From Heptranchias perlo (lineage: Eukaryota), in NCBI RefSeq assembly GCF_035084215.1, contig NC_090327.1, forward strand, positions 91,760,001 through 91,824,000: a stretch of 64,000 bases of DNA, written 5' to 3'. Below, piece after piece: positions 2,261 to 55,437 of this stretch (the stretch's first letter is position 1; each line of letters starts with the position of its first letter). A program made the position numbers and the translations under genes. Under the pieces are notes generated by a model, which saw nothing but the letters and a program-made list of their open reading frames with translations, was not told where the DNA came from and did not search any database.

Positions 2261-2340
2261 ATGATTGATAAATGTAAGGAGTCGTACAACACCAGGTTAT
2301 AGTCCAACAGCTTTGTTTGAAATCACAAGCTTTCGGAGCT
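2261..2340 (-). mobile_element. Truncated Penelope-like short element, same family as 2706-2918
   Basis: aaatgtaagga..acaacaccaggttatagtccaacag..tcacaagctttcggag matches the other copies; internal deletion after atgat. Confidence 0.75.
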
Positions 2341-2705
2341 TTCAAACTGGATTGCTGAACAGGATAGGAAGGCAAATCTATTGTGTTAAATTCAATTTAG
2401 GAAGCTTTGTATTTTAAAAACGAAGCAGATGCAAACGATTAATTTTAGCGGAGTTACTTATTTTTTTAAATCAGTGCAATGAATTTCAGCAAAAATAATT
2501 CTGAGATTGCAGATGTAGCTTTACTTCATGGTAAATCTCCTCTAACAGATATTTCAATTATGGGATAGCATTAGGTTAAAAGAAGAATCAATATGCTTTG
2601 TAAGAAAGAAAATATGATCTGGCATGAAAAAGAACTTCATGCTACATTTTATCCTCATTCCGAGGCAATGGGAAATAAATATGGCCCATCACATATCAAA
2701 GTAAA

Positions 2706-2918
2706 CATGATGTGGCGATGCCGGTGATGGACTGGGGTGTGCAAATGTAAGGAATCTTACAACACCAGGTTATAGTCCAACAGTTTTATTTGAAAATCAC
2801 AAGCTTTCGGAGGCTTTCTCCTTCGTCAGGTGAGCGAGGAAGGAGAAAGCCTCCGAAAGCTTGTGATTTTCAAATAAAACTGTTGGACTATCACCTTGTG
2901 TTGTCAGATTCCTTACAT
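2706..2918 (-). mobile_element. Penelope-like short element with fold-back inverted repeat
   Basis: 80-bp arms 2745-2824 and 2839-2918; 13-bp flanking direct repeat atatcaaagtaaa (2693-2705, 2919-2931). Confidence 0.8.
2797..2833 (-). ncRNA. Minimal type I hammerhead ribozyme motif
   Basis: Minus strand UCAC-CUGACGA-A-GGAG(AAAGC)CUCC-GAAA-GC-UU-GUGA: conserved core, helix II, palindromic AGCU helix III, helix I UCAC/GUGA. Confidence 0.7.
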
Positions 2919-3689
2919 ATATCAAAGTAAAAACAAGGATCTGACTGTCGGCTCATGTCCCAACTTTCTGATTGTAACAGTGTTCCTAGTGTGAAAAATA
3001 ATCAAGGTGCCATGATGAGTTCCTGTGTCATAGCAGCCAGCAAACAGAGGAACAATTCCCAGCATTCCCGGCACACCCACTGGCTCTATCTCACATTACA
3101 GCTCTACCTTCCTGACTCCTATGCTAGCATAAATGCTGCTCACTCCTTAGAAAGCCTACCACTTAATCCCCTGTCTCTCACCGTTACCTGCCTCAGCCCC
3201 TACCTGCTATTTCATCCCCACTCAACCTCAGACTCTTTCTCCTGCTTATTTCCAGGCCTCTGGCTGAAAGAGGATGGGCTGGGGTTTCCTTTGTCCATTT
3301 ATGTTATCTGCAATGTCAGCACAGTTTCCATTAAGTAGCTCAGACTGACTTCTAGAATTGAGGACAGAGGATCCCTGGGAGTGTCTTAGGATTTACAGAG
3401 GTTTTCCAGAGTGTGACTGACACAGAAAAGTTTGAAAACCACTGGGGTACAAAACTACTAAAGCTGATACCAGTTTCATACATCCCAGAATCTCTTAAGT
3501 GTTCATGATCTAAATATCAAGTGGAAGGTTCTCAAAAATTATAAAATGAAATTTTAAAAAAATGAAAAAGTATCGACAACACAGTAGAAATAGGGGAAAA
3601 AAAAGTTAGAAAAGATTTGCAAAGTTGTAACCCTTCAGTCACTTTTATCATTTTTAGCGTAGTCACTGAGTCCTTCCATTGGATTTCTT

Positions 3690-3915
3690 TAAGAGAGTGG
3701 TTAGAATGTGGAACTTGCTACCACATGGAGTGCTTGAGCCGAAATGCATAGATTCATTTAAGGGGAAGCTAGATAAACACATGAAGGAGAAAGGAATGGA
3801 ACAATATGTTGATAGGGTTAGATGAAATAGGGTGGGAGGAGGCTCGTGTGGAGCATAAACACCAACACAGGCCAGTTGGGCCAAATGGCCTGTTTCTGTG
3901 CTGTAAACTCCAAGT
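3690..3915 (+). mobile_element. CR1 3' tail fragment
   Basis: gtggttagaatgtggaac...ggccaaatggcctgtttctgtgctgt. Confidence 0.8.
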
Positions 3916-3949
3916 AATGTAAAATTGTTTGGTCGACTTAACTTGCAAC

Positions 3950-5597
3950 CAGGATTGCCAATCCTCCTGGATTGCTGGGGACTCTCCTGCAAAGGGGCAT
4001 GAATCTCCCGAGCGCTGCTAATTGCAGCCCAGGAGAATCTTGTGCTTTAAATTTCCAGTGCTCTCATTCCGCCACGCTCCGTGACATCACCAGCTGCCAC
4101 TGCAGAGATGCCTCCAGCTTAGTAACAGCCCCTTCCCTACCATCCCCCCTGCTCTGTCTCTGAGAACCGATCCAGCCGTTGCTTAGGGGAGACTGGAAAT
4201 GGGACCAGCTGGTTGCCGGGAGTTTGGTGGGGGTGGTGGGGGGGGGGAAAGAGAGAGAGACGGAGCCAGAGAGATGTGCGGAGTGCGATGAACAGGGACT
4301 AGAGGGTAGGGAATTGGGACTCGTGGGAGAAGAGTGGGTAACTGGGGACTGGGGAGGGTCGGGAAAGAGAGACAGGGGAATGGGGTTGGCGGGGGGCCCA
4401 GCATTTCCTGAAGATCCAGGAGTAGCAGCAGCATGAGTAACACTGAGAGGGGATCAACCAGTAATGGGGTGAGTGAAACCTGAGGGACTTTACTGTGGTT
4501 AAATAGTGAAAAATTGCTTCTACTGGGTGAATAGGGAACAAAGAGACACAGACTGAGGAGTCTCACTGGAAGAACCAAGAGGCAAGGTTTTTGTACTGAG
4601 GGCTATCAGAGCATGCCATAAGTAGCAATTGAGGCAGAGACTGGAACATCATTTAAGATCAGGGTAAGTATTTGAAAAAGAGGAATATAAAAGGGTCTGG
4701 GGAATGGGGTTACAGGAGAGAACGCAGCATTAGCACAGGTACAGGGAGCTGAATGGCCTCCTTCGGTGCTGTAATTTCTATCAGTCTATGAAAACTCTCC
4801 TTTATTGAGTCCGATCCCAGGGAGAGGTTTAGAAATGTTGGTGCTGAGCTAAGTTTCGAATGATGTGACCTGTGAGAAGTGTCCCAAACACTCACCTCTT
4901 CGCCCTTTGTGCGATCTCTAGATTTAGTTCAGGTCGGCCTGTGCTGGCCAGTTTTTATGTGAGAAGTGCAAGTTGAGATTGGCTGTGACTGAGGCTCACG
5001 CTTCAGAGGTAGCAAGTCCCCTTCACACATAACCCAAGTCCAAACCAGAGTCCAAAGAGTTAGGAAGAGGGATGTGGCCTGTTAAAAGTGGCATTGACTG
5101 GTGAGCCTAACCCTACATTGTGCAGTGTAAGGGGATTCTGGCTGTAGTTACAGACTGAATATCAACAGGTTGTAGGATTTCTACTAGTTACAGTTGGATA
5201 TCGGAGCATTACAGCTATTGCTACCAGTTACATAGCGACTATCAGTGAGTTATTGTATTACTGTTGGTTATGAGGGGAATCTGAGTGTTACCAATATTAC
5301 TATTAGTTATCGGTGCAATTTCAGTAAGTTACTATCAAGTACTCATGGAATCAAAGTTCCTCCCGCCTTTGGTTTCCCTTTCTTGCCTGCTCACGGGTGG
5401 CCTCCTGGTTCTCGGAACTTCTCGCACAACAACTGCTGGCGCGAATCCACGAGCAAAAATACTCAACCACAAGGGACCCGACCATTACAAGCTAAATGCA
5501 ATAACGTGATTGGATGTCACGTTGGCAGATGTCACGTGGTTAGATGTCACATGATCAAACATCCAGAAAATCCCTCCAACCAGAGATGGTAACTCTA
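3950..5597. mobile_element. Decayed non-autonomous DNA transposon (hAT-like ends) with internal insertions
   Basis: Ends caggattgcca / tggtaactcta resemble TAGGGTTGCCA; three subterminal gatgtcac repeats near 5513-5550; right end recurs in the opposite orientation at 47269-47316; 8-bp TSD only 5/8. Confidence 0.45.
4440..4790 (+). mobile_element. Old CR1 3' fragment
   Basis: Degenerate match to CR1 3' end, e.g. gctgaatggcctccttcggtgctgtaatttctat. Confidence 0.65.
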
Positions 5598-5869
5598 TTA
5601 ACAACTGACTTGCAGTCACAATTCTTCATTGACTGGGCGGCAAGGTGAAAATCTACCCCAAAGAACCTTTGTTATAGGTAAAACAATCTAATGGAAATTA
5701 GAGGGATAGGTCAGCTCTGTCACCTGAGAGCACTACCTGTAACAATCTTCTAGCTACCGAGTTTTGGATCCCGTCAAATAATAAATGTGCCCATGTGCCG
5801 GTAAGTCAGCCTCTGCAGCATTACGTATTTACACAAAGGAGAAAAAACAAATGTACCATCATTTTTTTA

Positions 5870-6318
5870 AATCAATCTCAGAATGTGGGCATCACTGGCA
5901 AGGTCAGTATTTATTACCCATCCCTAATTGCCCTGAGAAGGTGGTGGTGAGCCTTCTTTTTAAACTGCTGCAATCCATGTGGTATTCTTTGTAGTGGTTT
6001 AATATAATTAAATGGCTTTCTAGGCCACTTCAGAGGGCAATTAAGAGTTAGCCACGTTGATGAGGGACTGGAGTCGTATATAGGCCAGACTGAGTAAGGA
6101 CATCAGGTTTCCTTCCCTGAAGGACATTAGTGAACCAGTTGTGTTTTTAGAACAATCCGATAGTTTTTAATGATCACTTTTACTGATACTAGCTTTCTAT
6201 TTGCAGATTTTTGTTCAAACTGAATTCAAATGCTCAAAATGCCCTGGAAAGATTTGAACTTACATTCCATGAATTATTGTTCCAGGCCTCTTGATTACTA
6301 GTCCAGTAACATTACCGT
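5870..6318 (-). mobile_element. tRNA-derived SINE sharing its 3' tail with the LINE family at 33238 and 59075
   Basis: Minus head ggtaatgttactggactagtaatc with B-box-like gttcaaatc; tail ggcaattagggatgggtaataaat..ccttgccagtgatgcccacat matches 34050-34105. Confidence 0.75.
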
Positions 6319-7029
6319 ACCCAACAGAACTTATGCAGAACAACCTCCCAAACTAATACGCATTTAGGTACTTTGAGGAAATAAATGAGAAACTCCAGTC
6401 ATCCACTCTAATTAGATATACTGTTATGCAAATTAATTCCAGGTGACACCACAACAGGCGGCACTGTCAGGTTTATATTACAGAACTGCATCTGCTGCAA
6501 GCGTTGAATACTCTGCCCACCCATGGCCACAGCCAAGTGTCAGGCAGTGCTATTTACATTGAGGTAGATGAGCCTACACTGCAATCAGCACAGGCAGAAA
6601 TCACCTCAAGGTGGCCGTTTCTTCCTCAAGAGGCATTTACATTGCACATTTTCACTGAAGCAGCGGTCTGTCATTGGTAATATAACTATAATGTAAATGT
6701 AGCATTAACGATACTCGAGAAGTCATGTTCAGACAAGTTTGGAGCATTTACTTAGTGCAAAATGAAATACTTTTAGATGAATAGGGACTTTTGGTCCAAA
6801 TATATTTTTTGAGTCGAAGGTCTACAACAATTCTTTTCCACAATACTTCTAAATTATTGGCTTGAGACTGGAGTTATACTGCAACTACCAGTCTCAGACT
6901 TCTACCTGAGGAATGCAGTTGACACCAGGTAGACCCAAATTATACTAAGCAAATTGGCTGTGCGTTTGCCTATAAAAAAGTCACTGTACTTCAAAGTAAT
7001 TCATTACATGTAAAGCACTTTAAGATGTT

Positions 7030-7320
7030 TAAAGGATCTGATAAGGCTTTTAGAATCATAGAATGATACAGCACAGGAGGAAGCCATTCAGCCCATCGTG
7101 CCTGTGCCGGCTCTTTGAAAGAGCTATCCAATTGGTCCCATTTCTCTGCTCTTTCCCCATAGCCATGCAAACTTTTCTCCTTTAAGTATTTATCCAATTC
7201 CCTTTTGAAAGTTATTGTTGAATCTGCTTCCACCACCCTTTCAGGCAGTGCATTCCAGATCATAACAACTTGCTGCGTTAAAAAAAAATTCTCCTCATCT
7301 CGCCTCTGGTTTTTTTGCCA
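7030..7320 (-). mobile_element. CR1 3' fragment
   Basis: IWNALPERVVEA..FKRELDKYL; tagaatcatagaat tail. Confidence 0.9.
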
Positions 7321-8721
7321 ATGCCATTTAGGGGTATGCCCATACTATTCAATATAACTAAATAATAACATAAACTAAGGGTGTAACAATAGGACTCCCC
7401 TTGTGTTCTGAACTGAAATTTGTGCTTTTTGCAAGTCCCTCCACGTGTGCCTCTCCAAACTTTTCAAAGGCGGACCAAGAAAACACTTGGTAAGATGATG
7501 TCAGATACAAATTATTAAGCTGTTTTCTTTCGCAACACATGAATATACAGAGCAACAGTTATCATCAGATTCATTCAGTTTAATCAATGCAAATTATCTT
7601 TGCGAAATAATACAAAATAATAATCATGCTACACTTCCCCACATCAGTTGGTCATCTTGATTGATAGCTATTTTGTTTGTCAATTACCCACCTGCTTTCT
7701 AAGCTGGAGTCTGGTAAAAAATTGCCCTTACAGATTTCTTTTTAAAAGCTGTCTATTAGCAAGTGTTTCTGTCTCTGTTTTTGTCTCCCTTCGGTTCACA
7801 GCCCAAGGAGAGGCCTTATGCCAGACAACCCCTACCGAGTGCCCAGGACCAGGGACTTCCCAACACAATGGGTGCTAGGTGTTTATCAATTACGGAGACA
7901 CGCTAACAAATTGTTTATTGTTTACAGACCTTGGGAAAACAACTTCAATGTCTGGCTAATTAGTATTTTAATGACCTATCACCTCAGTGCCTTTTCAAAA
8001 ATGTGTGTGAATACATTTGTTTTAATATCTATCCTTTCCATGGAAAATGGTCAAAAATTATTTTCAATTTGTATTTCAGATTGCAATTAATCATAGTTTT
8101 CTCTTCACTCCAATAATAAAATTAATCCACTTTGAAATCGTTTAATGTGCTTCATAAAAAGGTCACATTGCAGCCTGGTCGGAAAATCCACTGGCGTACA
8201 GTATGTAATGACAGCTGTGTTAACACATGGGTTCACACCTACAATTCCCTCCACAGTAAGTTGTGATCTCAGCTGGGCAGCAGAGAGGAAAGCTTACATT
8301 TCATTGAATGCAAAAAAAAATCAACTGGAACAAATATAAAAGGTTTTTGGTCTGTTTAATATTTCAAGAAGAAAAAAAAAACTATTTTCACTGGCATTTC
8401 TGCCAAGCTTTGATACAGTTTGACAAGAGATGATGGCTGAAAAGTGGTATGATATTACAGATTGCAGTTCTCTAGTGTAATCACAAAGATATTTCTTTAA
8501 CAGTACATACAAGCAATCAAATAGATACAAGATGGGGGAAAAGCTTATGTTTTACATAATTCATGATTGCACCTTCAAATACACAGATTTAAAATATTTT
8601 GTTGTCAGATAAAGGCACTTTTTATCGACTGTTGATATATATTCTAACATGGTGAAATAGATTTGTTTTTTAATCAGCCAGCAATTGGTCTTATTGGGAG
8701 GCATTCCAAGGAAAATGTATC

Positions 8722-8784
<63 letters not shown>
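8722..8784. repeat. Compound microsatellite (AT)n(GA)7
   Basis: Directly visible. Confidence 0.95.
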
Positions 8785-9867
8785 ATCAACAAGTGTTTTA
8801 GTAACATATTATTGTGTATACTGAGTATCAAATATCACAATCTGCAGATTACTTTTTTTTTCCTTTTTAAATTATTTTTTCCCTTTCCCCTTTTTCATGG
8901 TTTTCCCATATCATGCACTTTTTTGGCTTGGTATGGGAGACAGGTGAATTATTCTCCATCCTCTGCCGATGCCACTTAAGAAGTCAAGAATAGTCCAGGT
9001 TCTTCTTCACTGCGGAGAGATGGCTGGGTTTCATTCAGGGCCCAGATCGGGAAGACAACATGTAAAATAATGTAGGCACATACGCAAGTGGCGAAGTACT
9101 TTGGTACTCCAGTATATCACTGATAGCACACCACCCCATACTACAGATTTTTTTTTGATGTAGCACTCAAAGTTATTGGTCTTCTTGAAGATCACTGAAA
9201 AGTGGAAACTATCATGTACTACCAGCAGACAAGACCAAAAACAGAATATAAATAATACGTATTGGCCTCATTATTTCCTGGTAATCAACTATTGGTTATT
9301 TATTAGGATAACTCAGTGATGCTGTGACAAGTATTGTCCCTTTAGTTTACTTGTCATCAAGGGTCAACCCATACAGAGCACTCTGTCCATCGAATTCTGC
9401 ACTAAAAACCATGGTTAGTAAAACCATTGTCTCTAAACTGGCAGATTAACTGCTTGAGCTTCACTGTCATGGTCTATGATGTAATTTAAGACCTAAACCC
9501 CCTCAATCATATTACTGTCTTTTGTATATTCTCTGTAAAATTACAACATAAGCTAAATCAATATAAATTTCAAATAATACGAATAATAGGGAATAATTGC
9601 AAGGCTGCATTTTAACCTTTGCATTGAGGTGACAGTTATAAACTAGGCAAGTATTGGTTTTGTGGTTTGAATATCATCAGAGTCTTAATTGGATTACTGC
9701 TCTGCAATGTTTTCCTAAATATCCATTGATACCCATAGATATCCATTGTTCTCTCTGTACTCATGTTCCACATATATGGACAATTTAAAAAGAAGCTGTC
9801 CAGTAAGCTAAGTACATCTAACAGTATTTAAGTACGTATGCTGCAGTGGTAGGCTTAAAATCAGTTA

Positions 9868-10080
9868 ACAACAACTTGCATTTATATAGCGCCTTTAACA
9901 TAGTAAAATGTCACAAGGTGCTTCACAGGATAGTTATCAAACAAAATTTGGCACGAGCCACATAAGGAGATATTAGGACATGTGACCAAAAGCTTGATCA
10001 AAGAGGTAGATTTTAAGGAGCAACTTAAAGGAGGAGAGAGGGGTAGCGTGGCGGAGAGATTTAGGGAGGGAATTATAGTT
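9868..10080 (-). mobile_element. L2-clade LINE 3' end
   Basis: aacaacttgcatttatatagcgccttt tail; NSLPKSLR..LSSFKLLLKIYLFDQAF. Confidence 0.8.
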
Positions 10081-10229
10081 TATAGTTATTCCCTGTTGAA
10101 GCACTTGAATATTCAGCTCAGAACCCAGCAATTTCAATGCAGATGTATTCCAATGACATGGGCCTGGGAACCCCAATGGATTGTGCTCATGACCCAACAG
10201 TATAGTTTGTAGCATTTATCATTGTAAAA

Positions 10230-10555
10230 GAAGATAGGGTAGATACAGAGAATCTATTTCTTCTGGTGGGGGAATCCAGAACAAGAGGGCATAATCTTAA
10301 AATTTGAACTAGGCCAGTGAAATCAGGAAGCACTTTTTCACACAAAGGGTAGTGGAAATCTGGAACTCGCTCCTCCATAAGGCTGTGGATGCTGGGTCAA
10401 ATGAAATTTTCAAGAATGAGATCAATAGTTCTGGGTATCAGAGGATATGGAATGAAGGAGTGTAAATGGAGGTGAGGTACAGATCAGTCACAATCTAGTT
10501 GAATGGCAGAACAGGCTCGAGGGACTGAATGGCCTACTCCCGTTCCTATGGATTC
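10230..10555 (+). mobile_element. CR1 3' fragment
   Basis: gatagggtagatacagag...ggctcgagggactgaatggcctactcc. Confidence 0.85.

Positions 10556-34518: not shown

Positions 34519-34524
<6 letters not shown>

Positions 34525-34553
<29 letters not shown>
34525..34553. repeat. (AG)n microsatellite
   Basis: Directly visible. Confidence 0.95.
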
Positions 34554-34557
<4 letters not shown>

Positions 34558-37922: not shown

Positions 37923-39000
37923 TCTTCTGCACAGTAGCAGATGATATATCCTGGTGGACAATTCAGGCCAGCACTGCTTTTATCACTTTAATAGCCATAT
38001 AAACCCTGTTAAAAAACAAACACACCCACCTCTCTGGGGGATGAGCCATAGAAATGCCTGATTCATGGAGCAGGCCCTGCAACAGCTTCTCTAACTTCCC
38101 CTGCACCATTACCTCTGGAGCCCACCAAGGATCTATCCTTGGCCCACTTCTATTTTTAATCTACATGCTGCTCCTTGGCGACATCATCCGAACACATGAT
38201 GCAGGTTCCACATGTATGCTGTCGACACCCAACTCTACCTCACCACCATCCCTCTCTACCCCTCCATTGCCTCTGTGTTATCAGGTTGCTTGTCTGCATC
38301 CGGTCCTGGATGAGTCGAAATTTCCTCCAATTAAATATTGGGAACAAGGGCCATTGTCTTCAGCCCTCACCACAAACTCTGTTCCATAACCACTGATTCC
38401 ATTCCCCTCCATGTCCACAGTCTCAGGCTGAAACAAATGGTGCTTCTGCATCCTAGCTTCCATCCTCCCATCTTCCACACTCCATAAACTTGAGCTCAAT
38501 AAATTTGGTGCTCATATCCTAACTCGCACCAAGTCCTGTTCACCCATCACCCTTGTGCTCGCTGACCTGCATTGGCTCCTGGTGGACCACCTTGATTTTA
38601 ATATTTTTATCCTCATGTTCAAATCCCTCCATGGTCTTGCTCCTCCTTATCTCTGTAACCTATTCCAGCCCTACAACCCTCCGAGAACTCTGTGTTCCTC
38701 CAATTCTGATCTCTTATGCATCCCCCCCCCTCTACCTTCACCCCACTATTGGCGGCCGAGCCTTCTGCCGGCTAGACCCTAAGCTCTGAAATTCCCTCCG
38801 TAAACAACTCTGCCTCATTATCCTCCTTTAAGATGCTCCCAGCTCTTTGACCAAGCTTTTCGTCACCTGTCCTAATACCACTTTCTTTTGCTTGCTGTCC
38901 ATTTTTATCTATGATGTGGAGATGCCACTGATGGACTGGGGTTGACAAATGTAAGGAATCTTACAACACCAGGTTATAGTCCAACTGTTTTATTTGAAAA

Positions 39001-39037
39001 TCACAAGCTTTCGGAGGCTTTCTCCTTCGTCAGGTGA
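39001..39037 (-). ncRNA. Minimal hammerhead ribozyme motif
   Basis: Exact reverse complement of 39047-39083. Confidence 0.7.
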
Positions 39038-39046
39038 GTGTGACAC

Positions 39047-39083
39047 TCACCTGACGAAGGAGAAAGCCTCCGAAAGCTTGTGA
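39047..39083 (+). ncRNA. Minimal hammerhead ribozyme motif
   Basis: tcac ctgacga a ggag aaagc ctcc gaaa gc tt gtga. Confidence 0.7.
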
Positions 39084-39739
39084 TTTTCAAATAAAACAGT
39101 TGGACTATAACCTGGTGTTGTAAGATTCCTTACATTTTTATCTAATTACGCTTCTGTGAAGCACCTTAGGACGTTTTTCTACATTCAAGGCACTATATAA
39201 ATGCAAGTTGTTACTATTGCTGTCATATCTTAAAAATGTTTGCTTGGAAAATTTGTGAGAATCTTTAAATAACAATTTTAGTCAGTAATCTAATTTTTTT
39301 TGGTGATGTACTGATTTTAATAATTATATTTTATCTTATAACCTACCTCTTGGACCTTTTAGTTACCTTTTGGCTCGTTGTCAATTTTTGTCTGATTATG
39401 TTCCTGTAAATTGCCTTGGGATGTTTTACAACAATACAATAGAGAGTGTTAGAAAAAGCAGAAATGCCCTCTATACTTCTGAAGGGCAGCCTACAAATGC
39501 AAGTTTATTGTTGTTGACATTTCAGATCTATTACAAGCTGCAAAGACAGACATGCAAAGTGGGAGCTGATAAAGGTTGTTCAATAATGACTTTGGAAACA
39601 CAAAGAACTGGGGATCTTAAAGTAATTACTCTGGTTACTGCAGCTATTAGTGTATTTGACATTTTATTCTGCTATGCTTTGCAATAAATACACTGTTACG
39701 TAAGCCTGCCCTTTTCTCTGCAAAATGCAATACTCACCA

Positions 39740-41330: not shown

Positions 41331-41331
41331 T

Positions 41332-44588: not shown

Positions 44589-47500
44589 ACTGCTATTTTA
44601 ACACACCAATAATGTGTGCATATTACTGGTGTTCGGTGTTGCTAAGGACCTGTTGCAAAAATGATTGTAGAGAATTGATTCACTTCTTTTGACAGCGATT
44701 TTTAAATTTCAGGCACAAAAGACCACTATCCTTACACTGCCCCACGGATAGCTGGTACCCTGTTGCACTACTGTAGGTGTCTAAGGTCTGGAGCAGCTAT
44801 TTTCCATCCTTGCCTCACTGAGTCAGGCTCCCGGGCACAGTCATAAATACCACTGGGAGCCCACTTGAATGCAAATTAGGCTGACCCCAGTGAATTCACT
44901 GCAATCTGTTATGCAACAGTTGGTGGGAAAAGTTGTGCCCTGCAATACATACAGTGGCGCTGTTGCCATAGAGGCAAATCTCAGCCATTTTGACCAAATA
45001 AACTTACCAATTCTGTTATTTTAAATTTTTACCTGGACAACATTTTAGGCTAGTAAATATTCTTTTCTATTTCAAACCAGGCCTTGTATAACCCCTACAG
45101 TAATCACATTTGATCTACAGCATTTCTGTATATGCAGCATTAGATCAGATTTAATTTTCATGGAAAAGATGCATCATTTATGCTCAGTGTTATTTCATGA
45201 TATTGTCTATAATCTACAGGTATTGCATCCTGCAGATCTAATATAGGATAAGGAACATTTGATCAATCTGACATTATCATCATGGAAATAAAATTCAGTA
45301 GGTGAATCAAGACTCCCATATTCTTCCATTTAATAAATTTCAACTCGGATCTTTATCCTCCAAATTACATTCACCTTTCATCCTCTTTGGCGATATAAAA
45401 TATAGTGTCATAGCAAGTAACAAGAGTTAAGAAACAAGTATATTATTTTGTTACTAGATTATCATAATGTACGTGATTCACCTCTATAGCTTTCAGTCCA
45501 GTTTAATGGGGATTGATGAGATTTTAGGGTCTTGCCTTAGATATTATCTCGGGTGCAATGGTGTTGGTCACTTCCTTAAGTGGTCTGAGCATCATACGTT
45601 TTGGAGTGTGCCTGAACTGTCCAAAATCTAACTATGATAGCATAACCCAGCTTTTCAACAGCAGTCCTATCCCCTTGTGATCTAAACTGGGCATTCATGT
45701 CTTTCACACATGAGCTTCTTGAATTTCTCTGAAGGCCAACTGAGCAAACACTTGTGAGACAAGGCCAGAGACAAATTATTAGGCTGCTTAACTTCAAAGC
45801 ACAAACTACAGTTATGATTGAAAATAAGTAAATCCAATCATTACAACTTTGCTTCATGGAAGAGAACAAAATAATGAATATGCTGTGCTTCCCCCCTATC
45901 AGTGAGTCATCTTGCTTGACTTTTTTTTAAACAAAGGAGTGTAATAGCTATCCTCTTCTACCTTCTGACCTCGCAGCCTTTGCTGGCCGTACTGCCTCAG
46001 AGTTTTTTGTTTCAAAAACCTGATCAACTGCCTGTATCTCCATATCTGTGCTTTATCTTCCTCTACTCACAGCCTGAAAGGGATAAGAGACTATCCAATA
46101 CAACGGGTGTGAGCTGTTTTTCATTGCTGAGACAGGATAATAAATTGCTTATTATTTATGATCTATGGGGAAACCAGATCAAAGCTAGCTCAGAAGCATC
46201 TTAACTACCTATTATTTCAGGGGTATTTTTTAAAAACATGCATGAATATACTATGCTGTAAAACACAATATTTAAAAATAACTCCCTTTCTCCCCCAAAA
46301 CCTCTCTTTGGAAAAATGGCCAAAAAATACTGAAACATGTCAGGAGGTATGTTTTCTAATGAAGTAGCATACACATCAAAAAACATGTACATGTAGATGA
46401 AAAGTCAAATTCAAAATGTCAGGAAGCGTACCAAATTATGTGCCAAAAATCTAAGTTTTCTGGAAGCATGCCCTTTGACCCTTCTTGGAAAAGAAAATCC
46501 CTTGTGTACAGTAAACCCAGTTCTAACATGTCCACTATGACTTTGGTTCCGACCAAATAAATGAACAAATAATCAACTGCAATTTTGTGCAGATATCTAT
46601 GAAACATCTTACATTAATCATTAGTGCATTGTGAACTTGTACTTTACACCAAACATTTTGCTGATTTTGCAGTGATCAGAAAGTTACCACTGGCAGTAAG
46701 ACCACACAGAAGAGTTAATCTTGCATCATTGGTACTGTGCATCAACTGTAGTGTGATTGCAATCAGCGCGAAGCTAACTTATTAAATTCAGCAGGACAGC
46801 CAGCTCTTCTCTGAAAGTAGAAATTTCACCTGAATAAGGGTGATGAAGTAAATCCAATCCATTTAAGCATAAAGGTGTGTTCTCTCTAGCTCAAGAGCCG
46901 CGCAATTAGGGAGTTATAACTAAGGCTGCTCACTTATGCCACTGTCTGAAATGCTCCCAAACACTGCAGCATATTCTGCAGTACATCTACTACATTACAA
47001 ACTATTAAACAATGGGTATGTAAGCGTTCGGCATTCAAAATGGAGGGCACTGTCTTTAAACAAAACATGAACAACATTTTCAAGAAAGAAGGGAATGTAG
47101 TGGCCACCTGCTTTTTACAGATAACCACAACCTCCACCCCCTCCCCCACCACCCTCCCACCCCCCCGACCTCAACCCAGCCCGGAGACATCAAAAGCAGC
47201 GGATTATGTTCCCTTCTTTAAATGCTGTTCACTTGTAATATCTCCTAGTTCTGAGGAAGCATCTTAAGTAGGGTTGCTAACTCTGGTTTGATATATTCTG
47301 AGGAATTTGATCATGAAACAGTATTAACGGCTTTTTCTGGAATCCATTCCACTAATCTGTGGGGAAAACCATTTATCTAATATCAATTGAGGTTTGTTAT
47401 TTAGTATTTATCTTTCTTAATCCCAATTTCTGAGTGAGAACCAATAAATGTGAAGTGTGTTTTTAGTGTAGCACAATAGGAAATCAAGTCACAGTCAGCC

Positions 47501-48344
47501 CTTACACTCCTGCAGTGTGACAGTAGGGTACTATTCACACTACATAAAATCGACTCAAACTGAGTTCCTAAAACAACCTTAAATATCCTTTGTTAGATAT
47601 GTAAAGCAGATTCCACTTGGCAACACAACAGTCTTTTCTCCAAATAATAGCTCTTAATGAGAGAGGGACAGAGAAAGCAGAGAGGACAGATAAATCTTTT
47701 AGAAAACTCACAGCAGCAAAGAATTAATCAGAACTCAAGCCATAATCCCACTCCTGTCCTGTCCACTGTTTGATCTTGGACTTGGCAAAAGGTGGCAACC
47801 TGACTTCTCTTCTTCAATACTGACTTTGTTGGAGTTATGCTCGATCATTTCCAGTGACTAGAGAGTGCTTATGTGGAATTATTTGCCAGAAAACTAAAAT
47901 AGGATACCATTTTTGCTAGGAAAGATTGTATATGGACTGTGAAAGGAGCAGGTTTGATGAGCTGAATCGTCCTCTAAAGGCTCCATGTTTTACTTTTCCG
48001 TACCCTGGCTCTCCTCTTAACTAATCATGCTTATTGTGTGAAAACTTTGCAGCACCACGAATTTTCACTAGATGTAATACTCAGTTGAAGACTTTAGCCC
48101 CGATTTTAATTCAGGGCATGTTCGGGGCGGGAATGACGTCAAGGCAGCTGGTGACAGCCAGAACTCGTGCAGGAGCTGGATGCTGTCAGGGACCCAAGGG
48201 AACAGTCCCCAGCACAAGGTTAGTACTGAGGGGGAGGGGATGTTTCCAAACAGATGCCAGTGCTGGGAGGAAGATGGAAGATGGAAGATGGAAGGCAGGG
48301 GCTGTGGAGGCCCAAGAATTCGCTGCAGGGCTTGAAGGAGCAAT

Positions 48345-48487
48345 CGCACCTTCGACAAGTGCAGCGCTCCCTCGGTGCTGCACTGAAGTGTCAGCCTAGA
48401 GTGTGTGCTCAAGTCTCTGGAGTGTGGCTTGATCTCACGACCTCCCAACTAGAGGCGAGAGTGCTACCACCGAGCCAAGGCTGATAC
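48345..48487 (-). mobile_element. DeuSINE-like (SacSINE1/AmnSINE-type) 5' part
   Basis: gcagcgctccctcggtgctgcactgaagtgtcagcctaga..gtgctcaagtctctggagt; tRNA-like head. Confidence 0.65.
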
Positions 48488-50390
48488 CTTGGGAAAGCAA
48501 CATTGCCAATTTTTTTGTTTATACACACACAAAAATGCTTCAGATTAGAACGAAACTGGGACTATGATGGCAGCCTACGAAGCATGACATATCCTAAAAG
48601 CTTAGCTGACAAGGTAAGCAATGGGTAACAAGTATTTTGTTTCCTAACAAAGGCTGAGAAATGTCCCTTCTCAAGGATGTCAGCATATATTCTGCTAGAT
48701 AAGCAATCTTGAGTTTATCATCAGCTCTCTCTGTAGAGACAGGTGATAAGTTGTAAAGTGAAACCCCAAAGACACAGGAGGTGGTGAGGAGGAGGAGGAG
48801 CTGAAACAAGCAGAATACAATAAGGAAATGAAACTTGAAGGGGAAAAAAAAACCCTGAAAAAATCTCTACAGAAAATACAGAACACTTCTGTACCCGTCT
48901 GAACCTTCATTAAATAAATTTGTCTAATGTATTTTATCACAGCATAGTTGCATCAAATTTATTAATAAACCATTTCTACAATAAACATAATTTCCTGAAG
49001 TATCTCTAATGACCATCATACTGGTCAAAAGAAAGTACCTCGTAGGTTTACTTTTTTAAGGTTAATCTCGGTGGATGACAATGCTTGACAATGACATTTA
49101 GTGAGATAGATAAATTAAGTTATACAATTTAATAGCTAAAAAAGATATTTGGCAGTTTGAGTAGAATTAATTTAAACTTGACAAAAATCAATACTAGGTT
49201 TTACAGACAAATTGTCACAAGCTAATTACACTTATGATGAGGTAATACTTTGAAATGAGTGCTGATTACTACTAATAGGTCAAAAATCCAATAAGAACCT
49301 ATCATATTAGATCATAAATCATGTCATATTGCAAATTTTAAAAGTACAGGGTTTATCTTCAGTTATAATAGATATAAAAGAAACAATTGTAACGGTAGCA
49401 GAATGGTCAATAATTCTGACAAGCTGATATGATCATACAGCTTTAAAGTTTATCCTATCCTGATTATATATATGTTATTATCCACAGTACAGATGTACTG
49501 TATTTCAAAATATGACTTCTATTTTATACTATTGGGATAATTTTCAGTTTGTATTAGAATTATATGGTCCTTAAGGATTTAAAAAGAGGGATGTCCCCAA
49601 TTAGTTCACATAGCATTTAGTATTAAATTATCATCCAGCTAATACATAAGATGTCATATTGTAAATTTTAGAAGTACACTGTTAGTTTCCGTTTAAACTA
49701 GGAGCAGATTTCGTATCAATAATTACACTAGCGTCATGTGAATCTCCCACTTTGTATTCTCAGACAAACACGAAGGATGTGAAAGGCATTATTCCAAAAT
49801 CCAATTAGAGTAAATAACTGCCTATTTACTCTTGGCCAATTGTCATGATTGTGCTGCAAATTCACAACAAATGTTAATTTACAGTTTACTGATGAAAAGA
49901 ATCTTATGCCCCATTTATTGTAGCAAGTAGGAATTCTATGAAGGCATGATCTGGCTCTCATTTACCTCCAAATGACAACCTGCACAGTGCCCATCTCTCA
50001 CTCTTGATTGAGAGCTGCCTCTTTGATCCATTTCTAAAAGTTAGTAGCAAGAGATATTACAAACTAGGCTGAAGCCAAAAGTTAAACCAACAGTAGACAA
50101 AATAAAATGGGTTTTGCCAGCTCAATCTCTCTCACTTTTTTCCTAAATAACAACTGAAGGAATGCAAATAGGGCTGCTTTATGGAATCTTGCTTCCTTTA
50201 TCTCAAACAATAAAACTAAAATTTTAGAAAAGGTCTAAAAATAGCATCTGGCAGCTGATCGCGCACAATGCTTTGAATGTTTAATTTTTTACTTTTCTTT
50301 CCTATACCAGTATTAATCTGTTTCATAGACGAGCCACAGTGACAATAGCTGGTCTTAAAACCAGTTTTGTTGAATCGAGATGGCTTGCAG

Positions 50391-50524
50391 ACAGTTCTGA
50401 TGAAAGGTCATCAACCTGAAACGTTAGCTTTGTTTCGCTCTCCACAAGTGCTGCCTGACCAGCTGTGTGTTTTCCAGCATTTTCTGTTTCTATTTCAGAT
50501 TTCCAGCATCCGCAATATTTTGCT
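50391..50524 (+). mobile_element. Second Penelope-like short element with hammerhead motif (50393-50429)
   Basis: agtt ctgatga a aggt catca acct gaaa cg tt agct, followed by a pyrimidine-rich tail. Confidence 0.65.
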
Positions 50525-51377
50525 GCTGTGTTGGCTTGCTGACAGCTGGCTGACAATGACCATGTTTTCACATGCGTGTTCTCCCGGCTGATGGACAAAC
50601 TGACTTGTAATATAAACAAAGTTGTTTCAACAACAAGCGGGGAAACTGCAAATATAGAGAGCTTCCTTCAGAAGTTGATCCCTACCATAAGAATACTATT
50701 AGAGTACCAGTAATGGCTAATGGTTTGACAACTGTTGCACATAGTAGCATGCGTTGCACATCCTGGATTGTAAAACATTGAGCAATTGCAAGAAAGTAAT
50801 GACTTGCCTTATCAAAATAGTTAGAAATTTGCCCTTTATCACATTGAAATCACAATTTAAAAATCATCCATTTCATCACATTTAGAAATGTTCTGTTTCG
50901 TGACATTGAAATTCTCATTCATTACAGCATTTTAAACGTAAGAGTAAATTTTGCGAAGCTTCACTTCCAGTACAGAGCCTCGTTTGACAGCAGTGTGGTT
51001 CAGAGAACCAGACACATAGGTCCGTGTCCAATTTAAGGCACTGTTGACTTTCTGGTAATTAATTTTAATAGTCAGAAAATCAGGAGCACCATGAATCGAG
51101 CATGCTGACCTCGATCCTTGATTCATTGGCTCCTACTGGATGAAGCGCTATGTCTGAAGTGCAGCTGTGCAAAACCAAACCTATAATTCCGTTATAAATT
51201 CTTTAAGGCAATTTTAACTGCTTTACGTTATCTGAAATTGGTATGGTCATAGTCTGTACACTCTGCACTGTGTGTGACAAAAGTGTCAACCCATTTAGAA
51301 AGAACCAGATTACACAAAGAACAAATTCTTCAACCAGGTTTAATAAAGTATTCTTTTATAACATCCCAAGTATTTGA

Positions 51378-51450
51378 AAGAAAGACTTACATTTATATAG
51401 TGCCTTTCACGACCTCAGGACGTCCCAAAGCGCTTTACAATCAATGAACT
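51378..51450 (-). mobile_element. DeuSINE-like 3' tail
   Basis: atttatatagtgcctttcacgacctcaggacgtcccaaagcgctttaca. Confidence 0.6.
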
Positions 51451-52188
51451 ATCACTTGATAACAAAATGACCATTTCAATATGTATCGAAAGTATTCCCA
51501 TCCTTTTAATCAATTCCCATTTGAAGCAAGAAAGTTATTCATCCTGTATCCCTGTTTCTAGGATTGCTGTAAGCATAAGCATTACATTTAATCTTTTCTT
51601 CTTTTGGGAATTATATTTTCAAATTCATGTCCTATCTTAAAAGTTCAAAGGAATTTGCAAAATATCTTAAAAGAAGACGGGCGTATCCTAATTGCTTTCT
51701 TTAGCTCAATGCGTCGGGTTTTGTGATGTTTTCCACAAAATCCGAAAAGAAATGAAAAGCTGGAATTATGTGTTGATGCAGTCGTTCTACTTTTATCCTC
51801 AGGACAATTCCTTACCACGTGAACCATATTCTTACAAATAACTTCTATTAAAAATAGTTGAAAAAGAGTGCGACCCAGATACTTGACTGTATTCGGAGTG
51901 TTGTTATTTGGTAACCAGGGCCTGACATTAGCAGAGTTCCCCAAAGGAGTTTATGGTCTACCTCAAGTGCCTGTCACAAGCAGACAAATGCTGCTGACCA
52001 TTCTACAGGAAGCATGAGAAAAAAAGCGCAGGAATGTGATTCGCTCTCTGGTGCCAACACAGGTCCTGACATATTTGAGGCATGCATGAAGTTGGAGGTA
52101 AAAAAATGTTACTTTTTAGTACTTCCAGGCATTCACAATGTGAGATCAGAAATTTTATGTACAATTTTACTATTTATATGTGTACTTA

Positions 52189-52975
52189 TCATAGAACCAT
52201 AGAAAAGATACAGCACAGGAGGGGGCCATTCGGCCCATTGTGTCTGCGCCGGCTCGTAGAATAACCAGGTGCCCGTTCTAATCCCACCTTCCAGCACCCG
52301 GTCCGTAGCCCTGCAGCTTACAGCACTTTAGGTGCAGGTCCAGGTACTTTTTAAAAAGAGTTGAGGGTCCCTGCCTCTACCACCAATTCAGGTTGCGAAT
52401 TCTATACACCCACCACCCTCTGGGTAAAAAAGTTTTTCCTCATGTCCCCACTAATCCTTTCGCCAATCAGCTTAAATCTATGTCCTCCAGTTCTTGAGCT
52501 CTCCGCTAGGGGAAACAGATACTTCCTGTCTACACTATCTGGGCACCTCATAATTTTGTACACCTCAATCAAGTCTCTCCTCAGCCTCCTCTGCTCCAAG
52601 GAAAACAACCCCAGCCGATCCAATCTCTCCTCATAGCTGCAATTTTCAAGCCCTGGCAACATTCTTGTAAATCTTCTCTGCACTCTCTCCAAAGCAATTA
52701 CGTCCTTCCTGTAATGTGGTGATCAGAACTGCACACAATACTCCAGCTGTGGCCTTACCAGCGTTTTATACAGTTCTATCATTACATCCCTGCTTTTGTG
52801 TTCTATACCTCGGCTAATAACAGAGAGCATTCTATATGCCTTCTTCAAAACCTTATCTACCTGTACTGCCACCTTCAGGGACCTGTGCACATGCACTCCA
52901 AGGTCTCTCACTTCCTCTGCCCCTCTCAATATATTCCCGTTTACTGCGTATTCCCTTTTACAGTTTGCCCTCCCT
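52189..52975 (-). mobile_element. CR1 3' fragment
   Basis: RPQLEYCVQF, ERVQRRFTR. Confidence 0.92.
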
Positions 52976-53215
52976 TTACTTTAAATTTTAAAGAGACAGA
53001 TGTCTTACAAAAAATGATTAGACATTTACTGTCCGGTACACAATAAATTCAATATAAGTTGCTTAATCATAGCCAGTTCATTGAAAGTTTTTTTCTTTCT
53101 ATTCATTTACTGTTCTAGCTTTTTTATAAGATGAAATTAAACGTGATTCTTCCATCTCCAACATGATGTTACTTCTGACAGGTGATCGGAATGCCTAAGA
53201 AGATTTTTCTGAGCC

Positions 53216-53481
53216 AAATGCAAATTGCATTAAATCCTCGTGTCAACACTGATTTGCAAAGCTGCTTGAACGTAAGTCCACAGGCCTGACTAAAGTCTCG
53301 ACTTGCCTGCGCACGAAGCACCGGGCGTGGGTTAATAGCGGATCAGCTAACCAATCCGCTATTAACCAGCGCCCGGTGCTTCGTGCACAGGCAGGACGAG
53401 ACTTTCGTCAGGCCTGTGGACTTACGTTCAAGCAGCTTTGCGAATCAGTGTTGACACGAGGATTCAATGCAATTCGCATTT
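53216..53481. repeat. Long inverted repeat (128-bp arms, 10-nt loop)
   Basis: 53216-53343 versus 53354-53481, loop cagctaacca, few mismatches. Confidence 0.92.
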
Positions 53482-54972
53482 TCCAACAGCAGGGGGAGCC
53501 CCAATCCCTTAAAGGCAGGCTGTCTCTTAAAATCTCTGTTATTTGCTGAAAATAACAGTCTGCTGTCTGCACAGAGTCTGAATAGAGATCAGACATCACA
53601 CACGTTAAACACATATGCGGGTCCCGACCCTATGTTTACAAACTGATGAGTTATGTTAAAACATTGAATAAAGATTGCACACTGCTAAATCTCACATCCT
53701 CCAATCTGCATGCAAGACCTTACCAATCTGCCAATCTGAGTTTGTACCAGGCCTGCAAGACTGCGTGCACCAAGGTTCTCTGCTGATGCACTAGAGGCCT
53801 TGGTGCAAAAGGTGGACAGAAGGAGGGACATCCTATATCCGCAGGGGAGGGGGGCAGGTTGCAAGAGGCCCTCCGGGCAAATGCCCAAAAGGCAGTGGGA
53901 AGCAGCAGCGGATGAAGTCAATGCCAGGCGCACAGCAACATGAACATGGATGCAGTGCAGGAAGAAGTTCAATGCTTTGACACGCGTGGTCAAGGTGAGT
54001 GAGGTCAACTGTCAAGTGGCATCTCCTCCCAACTGCACCACTAGCCGCAGCCACTGCTCCAGCACTACACCCCCATCACCCACATACCAACAAACTCAGT
54101 ACTCAATTCAGCCAATCAGATGCTTCCTCTCACCCTTACACATTACCACTGTTGCAAGCCGCCCACCCACAACTTACACACACTGGCAGCTATTCAACCA
54201 CGGCAGGCACATCACCCAGACACACGTCCCACTCACTTGCAGGAGAAGGTGGTGCATAAGAGGAGGCAGCATGTGGCAGTGGCATTTAGCCCCTTGAGCC
54301 TGTTCCACCATTCAATGAGATCATGATGGACCTGTGACCTAACTCCAAATACCAGCCTTGGCCCAAAATCTCTTAGTACCCTTGGTTCACAGAAATCTAT
54401 CAATCTCAGATTTAGAATTCGCAATTGAGCGAGCATCAACTGCCGCTTGCAGAAGAGTGTTCCCAACTTCTCCCACCCTTAGCGTGTAGCGACATTTCTT
54501 AACTTCACTCCTGTACATCCTGGCTCTAAATGTTAGGCTATGTCCCCGCATCCTAGTATTCAAGTATAGGAGACCTCCAAAAACAGTTACAAATGTATCG
54601 GCAGCCAGAAGCAATAATCCAAGCAACTAACCAGTAAATCCTGTATGGTCCCTTTAAATAGCGCTGGTGGGGGTTCTCCAGACACTCAAACATGTTCGGA
54701 TGGTCGTGGTTAAGACTGTGCGTTGAGTTGAGCGTTAAGTCCCAAAATGGTGTCTATCACTTTAAATCAGCGTTGCACACTGATTGTTTCCATTTTCTCC
54801 TTACTTTACATGCTTCCGACGTTAAGTAAGCATGCGCTAATACCTATATCAAGATGGCGTCTGGCGCATGTCAGGCTGGAAATGTGCGTGCACAGCCAAG
54901 ACGCCATCTTGGCACTTCAGGAGGCCATGTAGTGCCTAGACAATGGGTGTTAAGCGCCCAAATTTCGAGCCC
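53216..54972 (+). mobile_element. Internally deleted Harbinger with fold-back left end; CR1 tail inserted at about 54275-54560
   Basis: Myb exon RAPRFSADALEALV..WMQCRKKFNALTR with donor gtgagt at 53995; right TIR aaatttcgagccc. Confidence 0.7.
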
Positions 54973-55038
54973 ATGATGACTTGTATTCGTAAAAATCTCT
55001 AGCCCTTTAAATGAAGAAGGCTTCTTCTATTTCTTTTA

Positions 55039-55164
55039 TGATGTGGAGATGCCGGTGATGGACTGGGGTTGACAATTGTAAACAATTTTACAACACCAAG
55101 TTATAGTCCAGCAATTTTATTTTAAATTCACAAGCTTTCGGAGGCTTCCTCCTTCCTCAGGTAA
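55039..55164 (-). mobile_element. Penelope-like short element, monomer, hammerhead motif at 55128-55164
   Basis: 10-bp TSD atttctttta (55029-55038, 55165-55174); minus core CUGAGGA..GAAAGCUU. Confidence 0.8.
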
Positions 55165-55437
55165 ATTTCTTTTAAGCAACAACCATATGGTTTGAAGTTT
55201 TTAAAACTCGCCTCCTAGCCTTTTGAACCAACTAAGCAGTCAGGACAAGAGCCTTTTTCTTTTTGTGCCAGTAAATTCAAGAACAAAGTCTTAGGACAGC
55301 TAATCTTTTTTTCATTTTGGGCTAAGTAGGCCTTTGTTTGTACAGCTCTTTCATTTTCTACTGCAGCCTGGAGGACGTTTTCACTGCAATGACAATGTTT
55401 ATTCATGCCACTCAACATTTCCATTTCACGAGTCTTA

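What the first reader, a model, noticed from the sequence alone, without database searches (positions are those of the whole stretch)
2261..55174. Short ribozyme-bearing retroposon family whose copies stop or turn back at the hammerhead
Seen: four copies (2261, 2706, 38912, 55039) share a fixed end (tgatgtgg.gatgcc.., reduced to atgat in the first). Three have 10-13 bp AT-rich TSDs and end or invert within about 0-5 nt upstream of hammerhead helix I; the fourth ends inside helix II. The core is retained, so these ends are not the self-cleavage site, which lies 3' of the core. Inference: either a ~125-nt non-autonomous retrozyme-like unit, or RT stalls and switches template at the uncleaved ribozyme.
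Basis: partly seen in the sequence, partly recalled or inferred. Interest (0 to 1): 0.7.

Follow-up and report, generated by a model that had tools for sequence, protein, structure and literature searches.

The report
Penelope copies stop at transcript start
The four short inserts are clipped ends of a very common Penelope-type jumping gene, and about half of its sampled copies end about 30 bases downstream of a TATA-like word rather than at a fixed point of its ribozyme, which likely means that the copying enzyme starts near the front of the element's own RNA and runs off its first base.

Summary
The four copies are real. They are 5'-truncated ends (pLTR plus tail) of a Neptune-type Penelope-like element. 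A parent with RT, Zn-linker and GIY-YIG was found, and its tail 21-mer occurs 53,628 times in the genome. The pile-up of ends is real: 112 of 251 tail-selected copies end at -20..+9 of the hammerhead core, a rate 8-15 times that elsewhere. Short copies interleave with long ones on a tree, so there is no separate non-autonomous unit. The ends do not stay fixed on the ribozyme: they shift one-for-one with each subfamily's TATA-like word (slope 1.00 +/- 0.14, mode TATA+30), and genome-wide counts show a subfamily-specific cliff. Best reading (inferred, 0.7): RT starts inside the tail near the RNA's 5' end and runs off the transcription start. Palindromes are likely two separately primed cDNAs joined head to head. 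No RNA 5' ends could be measured. The element is a known kind, and this scan noted the same family and the run-off idea on other DNA of this genome. The TATA-tracking test appeared in none of my paper searches or note look-ups.

The parts
2265..2343 (-). Copy 1: solo pLTR arm starting in hammerhead loop II (about +12), no CUGANGA, probably tail-less, no TSD found
   Evidence: (90% over 81 nt)
2693..2705 (.). Copy 2 left target-site duplication (13 bp)
2707..2834 (-). Copy 2 tail arm: minimal hammerhead (C3 at 2829), AATAAA at 2785-2790, tail; 5' end at -5
2836..2918 (+). Copy 2 inverted tail-less arm, from +2 of the core to 38 nt short of the tail end
2919..2931 (.). Copy 2 right target-site duplication
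38900..38911 (.). Copy 3 left target-site duplication (12 bp, overlapping the element end)
38912..39042 (-). Copy 3 tail arm: minimal hammerhead (C3 at 39033), AATAAA, tail; 5' end at -9
39043..39137 (+). Copy 3 inverted tail-less arm (C3 at 39051), 5' end at -8, fully complementary to the tail arm
   Evidence: (I25)
39133..39144 (.). Copy 3 right target-site duplication
55029..55038 (.). Copy 4 left target-site duplication (10 bp)
55039..55166 (-). Copy 4: non-inverted pLTR plus tail of another subfamily (C3 at 55160); 5' end at -6
55165..55174 (.). Copy 4 right target-site duplication

Best explanation
These inserts are 5'-truncated ends of a Neptune-type Penelope-like retrotransposon, and their 5' ends cluster about 30 nt downstream of a conserved TATA-like word, likely because reverse transcriptase starts inside the tail near the front of the element's own transcript and runs off its transcription start. 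Shown: a parent ORF whose ATG begins at the tail end; a subfamily-specific TATA-like word 36-47 nt upstream of the hammerhead core; ends tracking that word; 10-14-bp AT-rich TSDs; no poly(A); inverted arms starting 33-40 nt inside the tail end. Inferred: (1) the word is a Pol II TATA box and TATA+30 is the start, so the mRNA opens with hammerhead, AAUAAA, tail and ORF; (2) the endonuclease nicks both strands about 12 nt apart and each nick primes a cDNA, one at the outer and one at the inner edge of the tail, as shown in vitro for the Anolis Poseidon element; (3) each cDNA copies about 100-135 nt to the RNA's 5' end, often losing a few bases on joining; (4) the two cDNAs join head to head (palindrome), or one joins the target (solo arm); (5) longer copies come from read-through RNA of tandem copies or from a template jump. 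On this reading the hammerhead is a passenger that sits just behind the start, and short copies lack the TATA box and are dead ends.
For: Parent: L031 has the pLTR, tail and ATG running into an RT frame. L037 holds an unbroken 695-aa frame with RVT_1 at E 1.8e-10. L045 hits GIY-YIG at E 2.7e-4, just under gathering. Peak: 112 of 202 at-risk tail arms end at -20..+9, 2.7% per nt against 0.18-0.36% in the other four intervals. Tracking: the TATA offset was predicted from sequence downstream of C3 only (leave-one-out rho 0.73, mean error 1.5 nt). Furthest reach against offset has slope 1.00 +/- 0.14 (n=117), with 0.90 +/- 0.35 for 37 non-inverted and 1.05 +/- 0.13 for 80 inverted copies, and the mode is TATA+30 (19 of 131). 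With TSD-confirmed copies only, the slope is 0.93 +/- 0.16 (n=86). Class medians are -16, -13, -9, -5, -4.5 and -4 for offsets -46, -44, -40, -38, -37 and -36. Genome-wide exact counts in the -46 class are 8,365, 4,270 and 3,806 arms reaching -16, -20 and -24, a 49% loss followed by 11%. The -37 class goes from 1,397 to 1,087 over -16 to -20, a 22% loss. Two start sites: 95 of 129 inverted arms begin 33-40 nt inside the tail end, and body:tail counts are 105,204:53,628. Internal initiation at two sites bounding the tail, cutting and extension of both strands, and no need for cleavage were reported in PMC11167929. AATAAA lies at +38..+40 in 64 of 64 long copies, and an A-run follows the tail in only 5 of 251.
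Against: No RNA 5' end was measured: only assembled contigs were available and they cannot show starts. The TATA-to-start distance of about 30 nt is textbook recall, not a call result. The points are not independent: there are eight offset classes in two lineages, so the p-values overstate the support. The peak is broad (middle half TATA+29 to +36.5), and 96 of 251 copies reach beyond -20 and need another template. The -40 class has several ends at -14..-22, upstream of its predicted start, at a local palindrome. No extra G from copying a cap was seen at non-inverted junctions. The motif's conservation (0.84-0.97 per column) is partly circular because rows were aligned on it. My first -37 control pattern gave 0.51, the same as the -46 class. 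It missed a variant carried by 6 of 11 long copies and was redone after I had seen the result. All sampled copies come from contig C1 and were picked by exact tail match.
Confidence: 0.7

Rival explanations
1. The conserved TATAAATGCG-like word is not a promoter but a binding or cutting landmark. Bound element protein would block RT, or the endonuclease would trim the new copy, about 30 nt downstream. Short palindromes at the junction might add to the bias.
For: It predicts the same one-for-one tracking. The Anolis protein cuts AT-rich DNA in its own pLTR (PMC11167929). Many inversion centres sit on short palindromes.
Against: The spacing equals the usual TATA-to-start distance (recalled), pyrimidine-CA words lie at TATA+28..+34 in most classes, and pLTR promoters are reported for Penelope, Chlamys-3 and (putative TATA plus Inr) Pen2a_Av. 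Non-inverted copies, which need no palindromic joint, show the same slope.
Confidence: 0.14
2. One reading: RT stalls at the uncleaved hammerhead and switches template or folds back.
For: Ends cluster within 20 nt of the core. In the -36 to -38 classes the medians (-4 to -5) coincide with the helix I edge. The window's three tailed copies end 0-5 nt from it.
Against: In the -46 class the median is -16, ten bases beyond helix I, in a stretch with at most a 3-bp hairpin in the folds. The slope against the TATA offset is 1, not 0. RT meets the 3' strand of a helix first, yet the rate inside the fold (+10..+29) is at background, 0.27% per nt. The inverted arm is the longer one in 38 of 110, which a fold-back of the tail arm cannot give.
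Confidence: 0.09
3. One reading: a ~125-nt non-autonomous retrozyme-like unit that amplifies itself through multimeric or circular RNA.
For: A few head-to-tail neighbours exist (L172, L121), and one contig of a run guessed to be RNA joins the unit's end to its start. Retrozymes derived from pLTRs are reported in vertebrates, one chondrichthyan included (preprint 10.64898/2026.07.22.740005).
Against: Short copies form no clades of their own: 35 changes against 36.9 shuffled, 138-153 of 500 shuffles as low, and six sets of identical rows hold both short and long copies (only 105 columns). There is no fixed 5' end. A tail is directly followed by another core in only 1 of 251. The unit runs from upstream of the core to the tail, not from cut site to cut site.
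Confidence: 0.04
4. The ends mark ribozyme self-cleavage of the template.
For: Arm ends are denser downstream of the predicted cut than just upstream of it (56 in 32 nt against 15 in 19 nt, binomial p 0.005), which fits a minor cleaved class.
Against: 193 of 327 arm ends lie at -20..+9 and only 10 at +29..+32, with no sharp peak there (p 0.22). The AT-rich tract downstream favours microhomology joints anyway. PMC11167929 found cleavage unnecessary in vitro.
Confidence: 0.03

Closest known systems
Endonuclease-positive Penelope-like elements, Neptune clade (PMC8557442, passages; PMC3846280, passages)
   Same: Single ORF with RT, CX2-5CxxC linker and C-terminal GIY-YIG; heavy 5' truncation; inverted 5'-truncated pLTR; 30-40-nt tail on one end only; short TSD; putative TATA plus Inr in the pLTR (Pen2a_Av).
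   Different: The passages read describe truncation as frequent but give no positional peak, and explain head-to-head palindromes by self-priming on an antisense template. Here about half of the copies end at TATA+30, and either arm can be the longer.
Poseidon element PAc of Anolis carolinensis (PMC11167929, parts 1-2 of 4 read)
   Same: Internal RT starts at two sites bounding the tail; both strands cut and extended; AT-rich target; ribozyme cleavage not required.
   Different: PAc is Penelope/Poseidon clade and its ORF starts inside the ribozyme, whereas here the ATG follows the tail. PAc showed no strand bias between the two start sites in vitro, whereas here one arm has the tail and the other lacks it in 128 of 129 (sample selected on one tail). 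The parts read do not address 5' ends of genomic copies.
Minimal type I hammerheads of metazoan PLE pLTRs (PMC4209133, parts 1-2 of 4 read)
   Same: CUGANGA, extra nucleotide before helix II, G10.1-C11.1, short helix I, palindromic 15.2-16.2 with no true helix III, thousands of single dispersed motifs tied to truncated PLEs.
   Different: Helix II is 4-5 bp here. The paper proposes cleavage and circles, which the insertion ends here do not follow as a main route.
Non-LTR retrozymes (bioRxiv 10.64898/2026.07.22.740005, part 1 of 5 and passages; PMC7229834, search listing only)
   Same: Small, non-coding, type I hammerhead, pLTR-related.
   Different: Retrozymes are defined by head-to-tail tandem units with a ribozyme each. 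These copies are solo or head to head and do not form their own lineage.
Minus-strand strong-stop DNA of LTR retroelements (recalled, no call)
   Same: Works like it: priming close to the RNA's 5' end gives a short cDNA ending at the start site, and the pLTR has TATA, start, poly(A) signal and tail in U3-R-U5 order.
   Different: Target-primed and integrated directly; no tRNA primer site, integrase or Gag was seen in the parent; strand transfer is not shown.

Membership tests
EN+ Penelope-like element | Single ORF with RT and C-terminal GIY-YIG endonuclease | tested here: met
   695-aa unbroken frame in L037 with RVT_1 E 1.8e-10; GIY-YIG E 2.7e-4, 21.6 bits against gathering 22.6, in L045; no fully intact copy was sought
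EN+ Penelope-like element | pLTR both before the ORF and after it | tested here: met
   L031 has the pLTR before the ORF; L033, L035, L037 and L045 have it after; 3 of 251 tails run on into the ORF
EN+ Penelope-like element | Inverted 5'-truncated pLTR and 30-40-nt tail on one end | tested here: met
   129 of 198 short copies inverted; 95 of 129 inverted arms start 33-40 nt inside the tail end
EN+ Penelope-like element | Short TSD at AT-rich target, no poly(A) end | tested here: met
   134 of 198 with TSD of 10 nt or more, 71% AT, control 0 of 198; A-run after the tail in 5 of 251
Neptune clade | CX2-5CxxC linker motif between RT and EN | tested here: met
   C-x4-C-x2-C before the GIY-YIG region in L037, L045 and L031; definition from PMC8557442. 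Nematis shares this motif
Neptune clade | RT phylogeny groups with Neptune rather than Nematis | not tested
   No reference PLE proteins were fetched; the label Neptune rests on the linker motif and the vertebrate host
Minimal type I hammerhead | Core boxes, helix I and II, extra base after A9, palindromic 15.2-16.2 | tested here: met
   GGAG/CUCC helix II with GCUU in 123 of 151 parsed cores; one GGGG/CCCC and five G.U variants; helix I of 4-6 bp varying between subfamilies; Rfam gave no hit
Minimal type I hammerhead | Self-cleavage (as a dimer or protein-assisted) | not testable with these tools
   Needs an in vitro assay
Non-LTR retrozyme | Tandem head-to-tail units, each with a ribozyme | tested here: not met
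   1 of 251 tails directly followed by another core; none of the four window copies is tandem
Non-LTR retrozyme | Own lineage with a fixed unit length | tested here: not met
   Short and long copies interleave; 5' ends scatter over 30 nt and shift by subfamily
Non-LTR retrozyme | Circular or multimeric RNA | tested here: inconclusive
   One end-to-start joint in one contig of a run only guessed to be RNA; genomic dimers could give it

The most novel reading that the evidence does not exclude
Penelope-like elements replicate like a target-primed LTR element. The pLTR is a true U3-R-U5 (TATA, start, hammerhead, poly(A) signal, tail). RT primes twice in the tail at the mRNA's 5' end and makes strong-stop DNA, and a jump through the repeated R region to the RNA's 3' end yields the long copies. 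The tens of thousands of ~125-nt solo and palindromic inserts are failed jumps, which map the start site of every subfamily. The palindromic hammerhead may serve to pair two RNAs for the two primers rather than to cut.
Probability: 0.3. Interest if true: 0.75.

Novelty: new member of a known kind. Interest (0 to 1): 0.45.

Why it matters
How Penelope-like elements replicate is open: the one in vitro study shows internal initiation but leaves later steps and the role of the ribozyme unexplained. If the ends mark the transcription start, a large share of insertions come from the front of an ordinary mRNA. That would explain the tail, the head-to-head palindromes and the thousands of lone minimal hammerheads reported in animal genomes, without needing ribozyme cleavage. 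It gives exact per-subfamily predictions (start at -16/-17, -14, -10, -7) that one CAGE or 5'-RACE run can test, and it warns against annotating such inserts as SINEs, MITEs, microRNA hairpins or retrozymes.

Tried and rejected
Rfam scan: no hammerhead family reached threshold. The first genome search by the 130-nt copy favours full matches, so its copies were used only as long references. Sequencing runs: no RNA holder listed, all runs are contigs. Laying them shows higher summed depth over hammerhead-to-tail than upstream in every run, but contigs cannot show starts or levels, so this is not used as evidence. Extra G from the cap: not seen among 44 listed non-inverted junctions. Extended helix I as the stop: folds put its edge at -4 or -6 in most rows seen (output partly cut). 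Unknown subfamily posing as a breakpoint: the upstream flanks of 23 peak copies with neither TSD nor inversion are unrelated to each other, one chance pair aside. Splice acceptor at the peak (in D. virilis the intron ends at helix I, PMC4209133): no AG at TATA+26..+34 in 60 of 62 references. Chimeras between subfamilies as a trace of strand transfer: none convincing among 64 long copies; two flags were misclassifications and one pair involves an aberrant row. This neither supports nor excludes jumps within one RNA. The first -37 control pattern was flawed and was redone. The 40 kb flanking the window hold no further match to the 130-nt query. Paper searches returned no paper linking PLE 5' truncation to the start site. 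Subscription journals, Repbase and Dfam entries, figures and all supplements were not seen; the supplements of PMC11167929 (Fig. S2 coverage) may bear on this.
Full report
Observation. The four inserts read on the minus strand as the same ~125-nt unit: a minimal type I hammerhead (helix I, CUGANGA, an extra A, helix II GGAG/CUCC, GAAAGCUU with the cut predicted after it), AATAAA, and a fixed 3' tail. Positions are counted from C3 of CUGANGA = 0, so the predicted cut is at +29 and helix I begins at -4 or -6. Copy 2 ends at -5 with an inverted arm from +2 and a 13-bp TSD. Copy 3 is a perfect palindrome with arms ending at -9 and -8 and a 12-bp TSD. Copy 4 ends at -6 with a 10-bp TSD. Copy 1 starts in loop II, has no TSD, and is probably a tail-less solo arm. 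Rfam has no matching family.

What it is. The genome is 3.25 Gb; earlier scan notes call it a shark, which I did not check. Related loci extend upstream into a 3' UTR and an ORF, and in L031 the tail runs straight into the ATG of that ORF. L037 holds an unbroken 695-aa frame with RVT_1 (E 1.8e-10). A C-x4-C-x2-C linker and a GIY-YIG region follow (E 2.7e-4, just under gathering). By the definitions in PMC8557442 (passages) this is an endonuclease-positive Penelope-like element of Neptune type; no tree was built, so Nematis is not excluded. The tail 21-mer occurs 53,628 times and a pLTR-body 21-mer 105,204 times, controls 0. Inverted pLTR, one-sided 30-40-nt tail and TSD are the published PLE insertion form (PMC8557442; PMC3846280, passages), and minimal hammerheads in pLTRs are published too (PMC4209133, parts 1-2 of 4).

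Sample. I fetched copies chosen on the tail alone, in genome order on contig C1: all of the first 100 hits, 90 of the first 100 and 70 of the first 100, plus copies met in their flanks. Copies with under 600 nt upstream or 120 nt downstream held were left out. That gave 259, and 251 after dropping 8 with near-identical downstream flanks. 5' ends were read against 64 real long copies. 53 of 251 reach the ORF end; 198 are shorter, 129 of them with an adjacent inverted arm, and 134 have a TSD of 10 nt or more (71% AT) against 0 of 198 with shuffled flanks.

The peak is real. 112 of 202 at-risk tail arms end at -20..+9, 2.7% per nt, against 0.27, 0.27, 0.36 and 0.18% per nt at +30..+89, +10..+29, -60..-21 and -280..-61. 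By furthest reach, 95 of 118 peak copies are confirmed by a TSD or an inversion, and the other 23 have unrelated flanks. It is not the cut site: 193 of 327 arm ends lie in the peak and 10 at +29..+32. A step in density at +29 (p 0.005) leaves room for a minor cleaved class.

Not a separate small element. On a tree of 96 peak and 53 long copies (105 columns, FastTree) the label needs 35 changes against 36.9 for shuffles, and six sets of identical rows mix both kinds. Each subfamily makes its own short copies. A tail is directly followed by a second core in 1 of 251.

Not a stall at the ribozyme. Subfamilies differ upstream of the core but share a TATAAATGCG-like word at -36 to -47 (one row at -25). 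I predicted each short copy's offset from sequence downstream of C3 only (leave-one-out rho 0.73, error 1.5 nt) and regressed the furthest 5' reach of either arm on it. The slope is 1.00 +/- 0.14 (n=117, reach -25..+10), 0.94-1.21 for other windows, 0.90 +/- 0.35 for non-inverted copies, 0.70 for tail arms alone and 1.17 for inverted arms alone. The mode is TATA+30 (19 of 131) with a tail towards the 3' side. TSD-confirmed copies give 0.93 +/- 0.16 (n=86). The helix I edge moves only 2 nt. Whole-genome counts agree. In the -46 class 8,365 arms reach -16, 4,270 reach -20 and 3,806 reach -24. In the -37 class 1,397 reach -16 and 1,087 reach -20. My first pattern for that control missed a common variant and gave 708. 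The complementary cliff at about -7 in the -37 class was seen only in the sample, not counted genome-wide. Limits: eight classes in two lineages are not independent points; the -40 class has ends upstream of its predicted start at a local palindrome; no cap-derived G was seen.

Mechanism. PMC11167929 (parts 1-2 of 4) showed for an Anolis Poseidon element that RT starts inside the RNA at two sites bounding the tail, needs RNA downstream of them, cuts and extends both target strands, and does not need ribozyme cleavage. Here the tail lies directly before the ATG, and AATAAA (+38..+40 in 64 of 64) and a GU-rich word (+63/64 in 60 of 64) lie before the tail. A transcript starting at TATA+30 (distance recalled from Pol II promoters) would therefore carry the tail about 110-140 nt from its cap. 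I infer that RT primes there and runs off the start. For palindromes, 95 of 129 inverted arms begin 33-40 nt inside the tail end and only 1 carries a tail. Among 110 with a standard inner end, the inverted arm reaches further in 38, the tail arm in 51, and 21 are level. A fold-back of the tail arm cannot make the inverted arm longer, so two separately primed cDNAs joined head to head is the likely route. PMC3846280 instead proposed self-priming on antisense RNA. The 96 of 251 copies that pass -20 need read-through RNA from tandem copies or a template jump; I found no chimeras between subfamilies. RNA evidence could not be had: no RNA holder was listed and contigs show no starts.

Earlier notes of this scan. 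76 notes in this genome fit the look-up. Several describe this family, twin priming and run-off at an RNA start. They are unchecked AI notes and not independent support; my reading was written before I saw them, and they led me to PMC3846280. One note from another genome found nothing to show that such TATA words start a transcript. Look-ups for a TATA-tracking test returned no note holding all the words.

Verdict. The element is a new member of a known kind, and the window's copies are ordinary products of it. The value lies in the population: ends track TATA+30, which turns an open question about PLE replication into a precise test. Run-off at the start 0.70; landmark or roadblock 0.14; ribozyme stall 0.09; non-autonomous unit 0.04; cleavage as main cause 0.03. 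Interest 0.45.

Noticed in passing
window 50397-50425 (+): A second, unrelated minimal hammerhead-like motif (CUGAUGA, extra A, helix II AGGU/ACCU, GAAACGUU with a palindromic AACGUU), probably another PLE-type end.
   Followed up: no
window 53216-53481: A 266-nt palindrome with 128-nt arms, 93% complementary, unrelated to this family; looks like a MITE-type element; no TSD examined.
   Followed up: no
L049:7370-7400 and L015: A subfamily whose TATA-like word lies only 25 nt upstream of the core; run-off predicts ends inside the core (about +5). No short copy could be assigned to it.
   Followed up: partly
L172 (second copy), L121:3948 and 4083; joint 8781 to 8655 in run X5: Rare head-to-tail neighbours of the short unit, and one end-to-start joint in a contig of a run guessed to be RNA; possible raw material for retrozymes.
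   Followed up: partly
L316, L323, L334: Tail-less solo arms ending at the inner start site (3 of 30 body-selected loci); L323 and L334 may be far arms of long inverted insertions.
   Followed up: partly
long references, about -60 and +60 from the core: A word upstream of the TATA box is complementary to a word downstream of the poly(A) signal, and both seem to change together between subfamilies (seen by eye): a possible long-range helix in read-through RNA.
   Followed up: no
L110, L111, L117-L122, L128, L137 (G000:C1 about 3.1-4.9 Mb): A cluster of closely spaced, near-identical long and short copies, including a tandem running into the ORF; candidate source loci for read-through RNA or local duplication.
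   Followed up: no
window 1-64000: The window is dense in other dispersed repeat families (at least 60 direct-repeat families), by recall CR1/L2-like LINE ends; many Penelope copies in the sample sit inside such repeats.
   Followed up: no
window 39004-39080, 2799-2866: The palindromic inserts score weakly against microRNA precursor models (below gathering), so they could be mis-annotated as miRNA hairpins.
   Followed up: no
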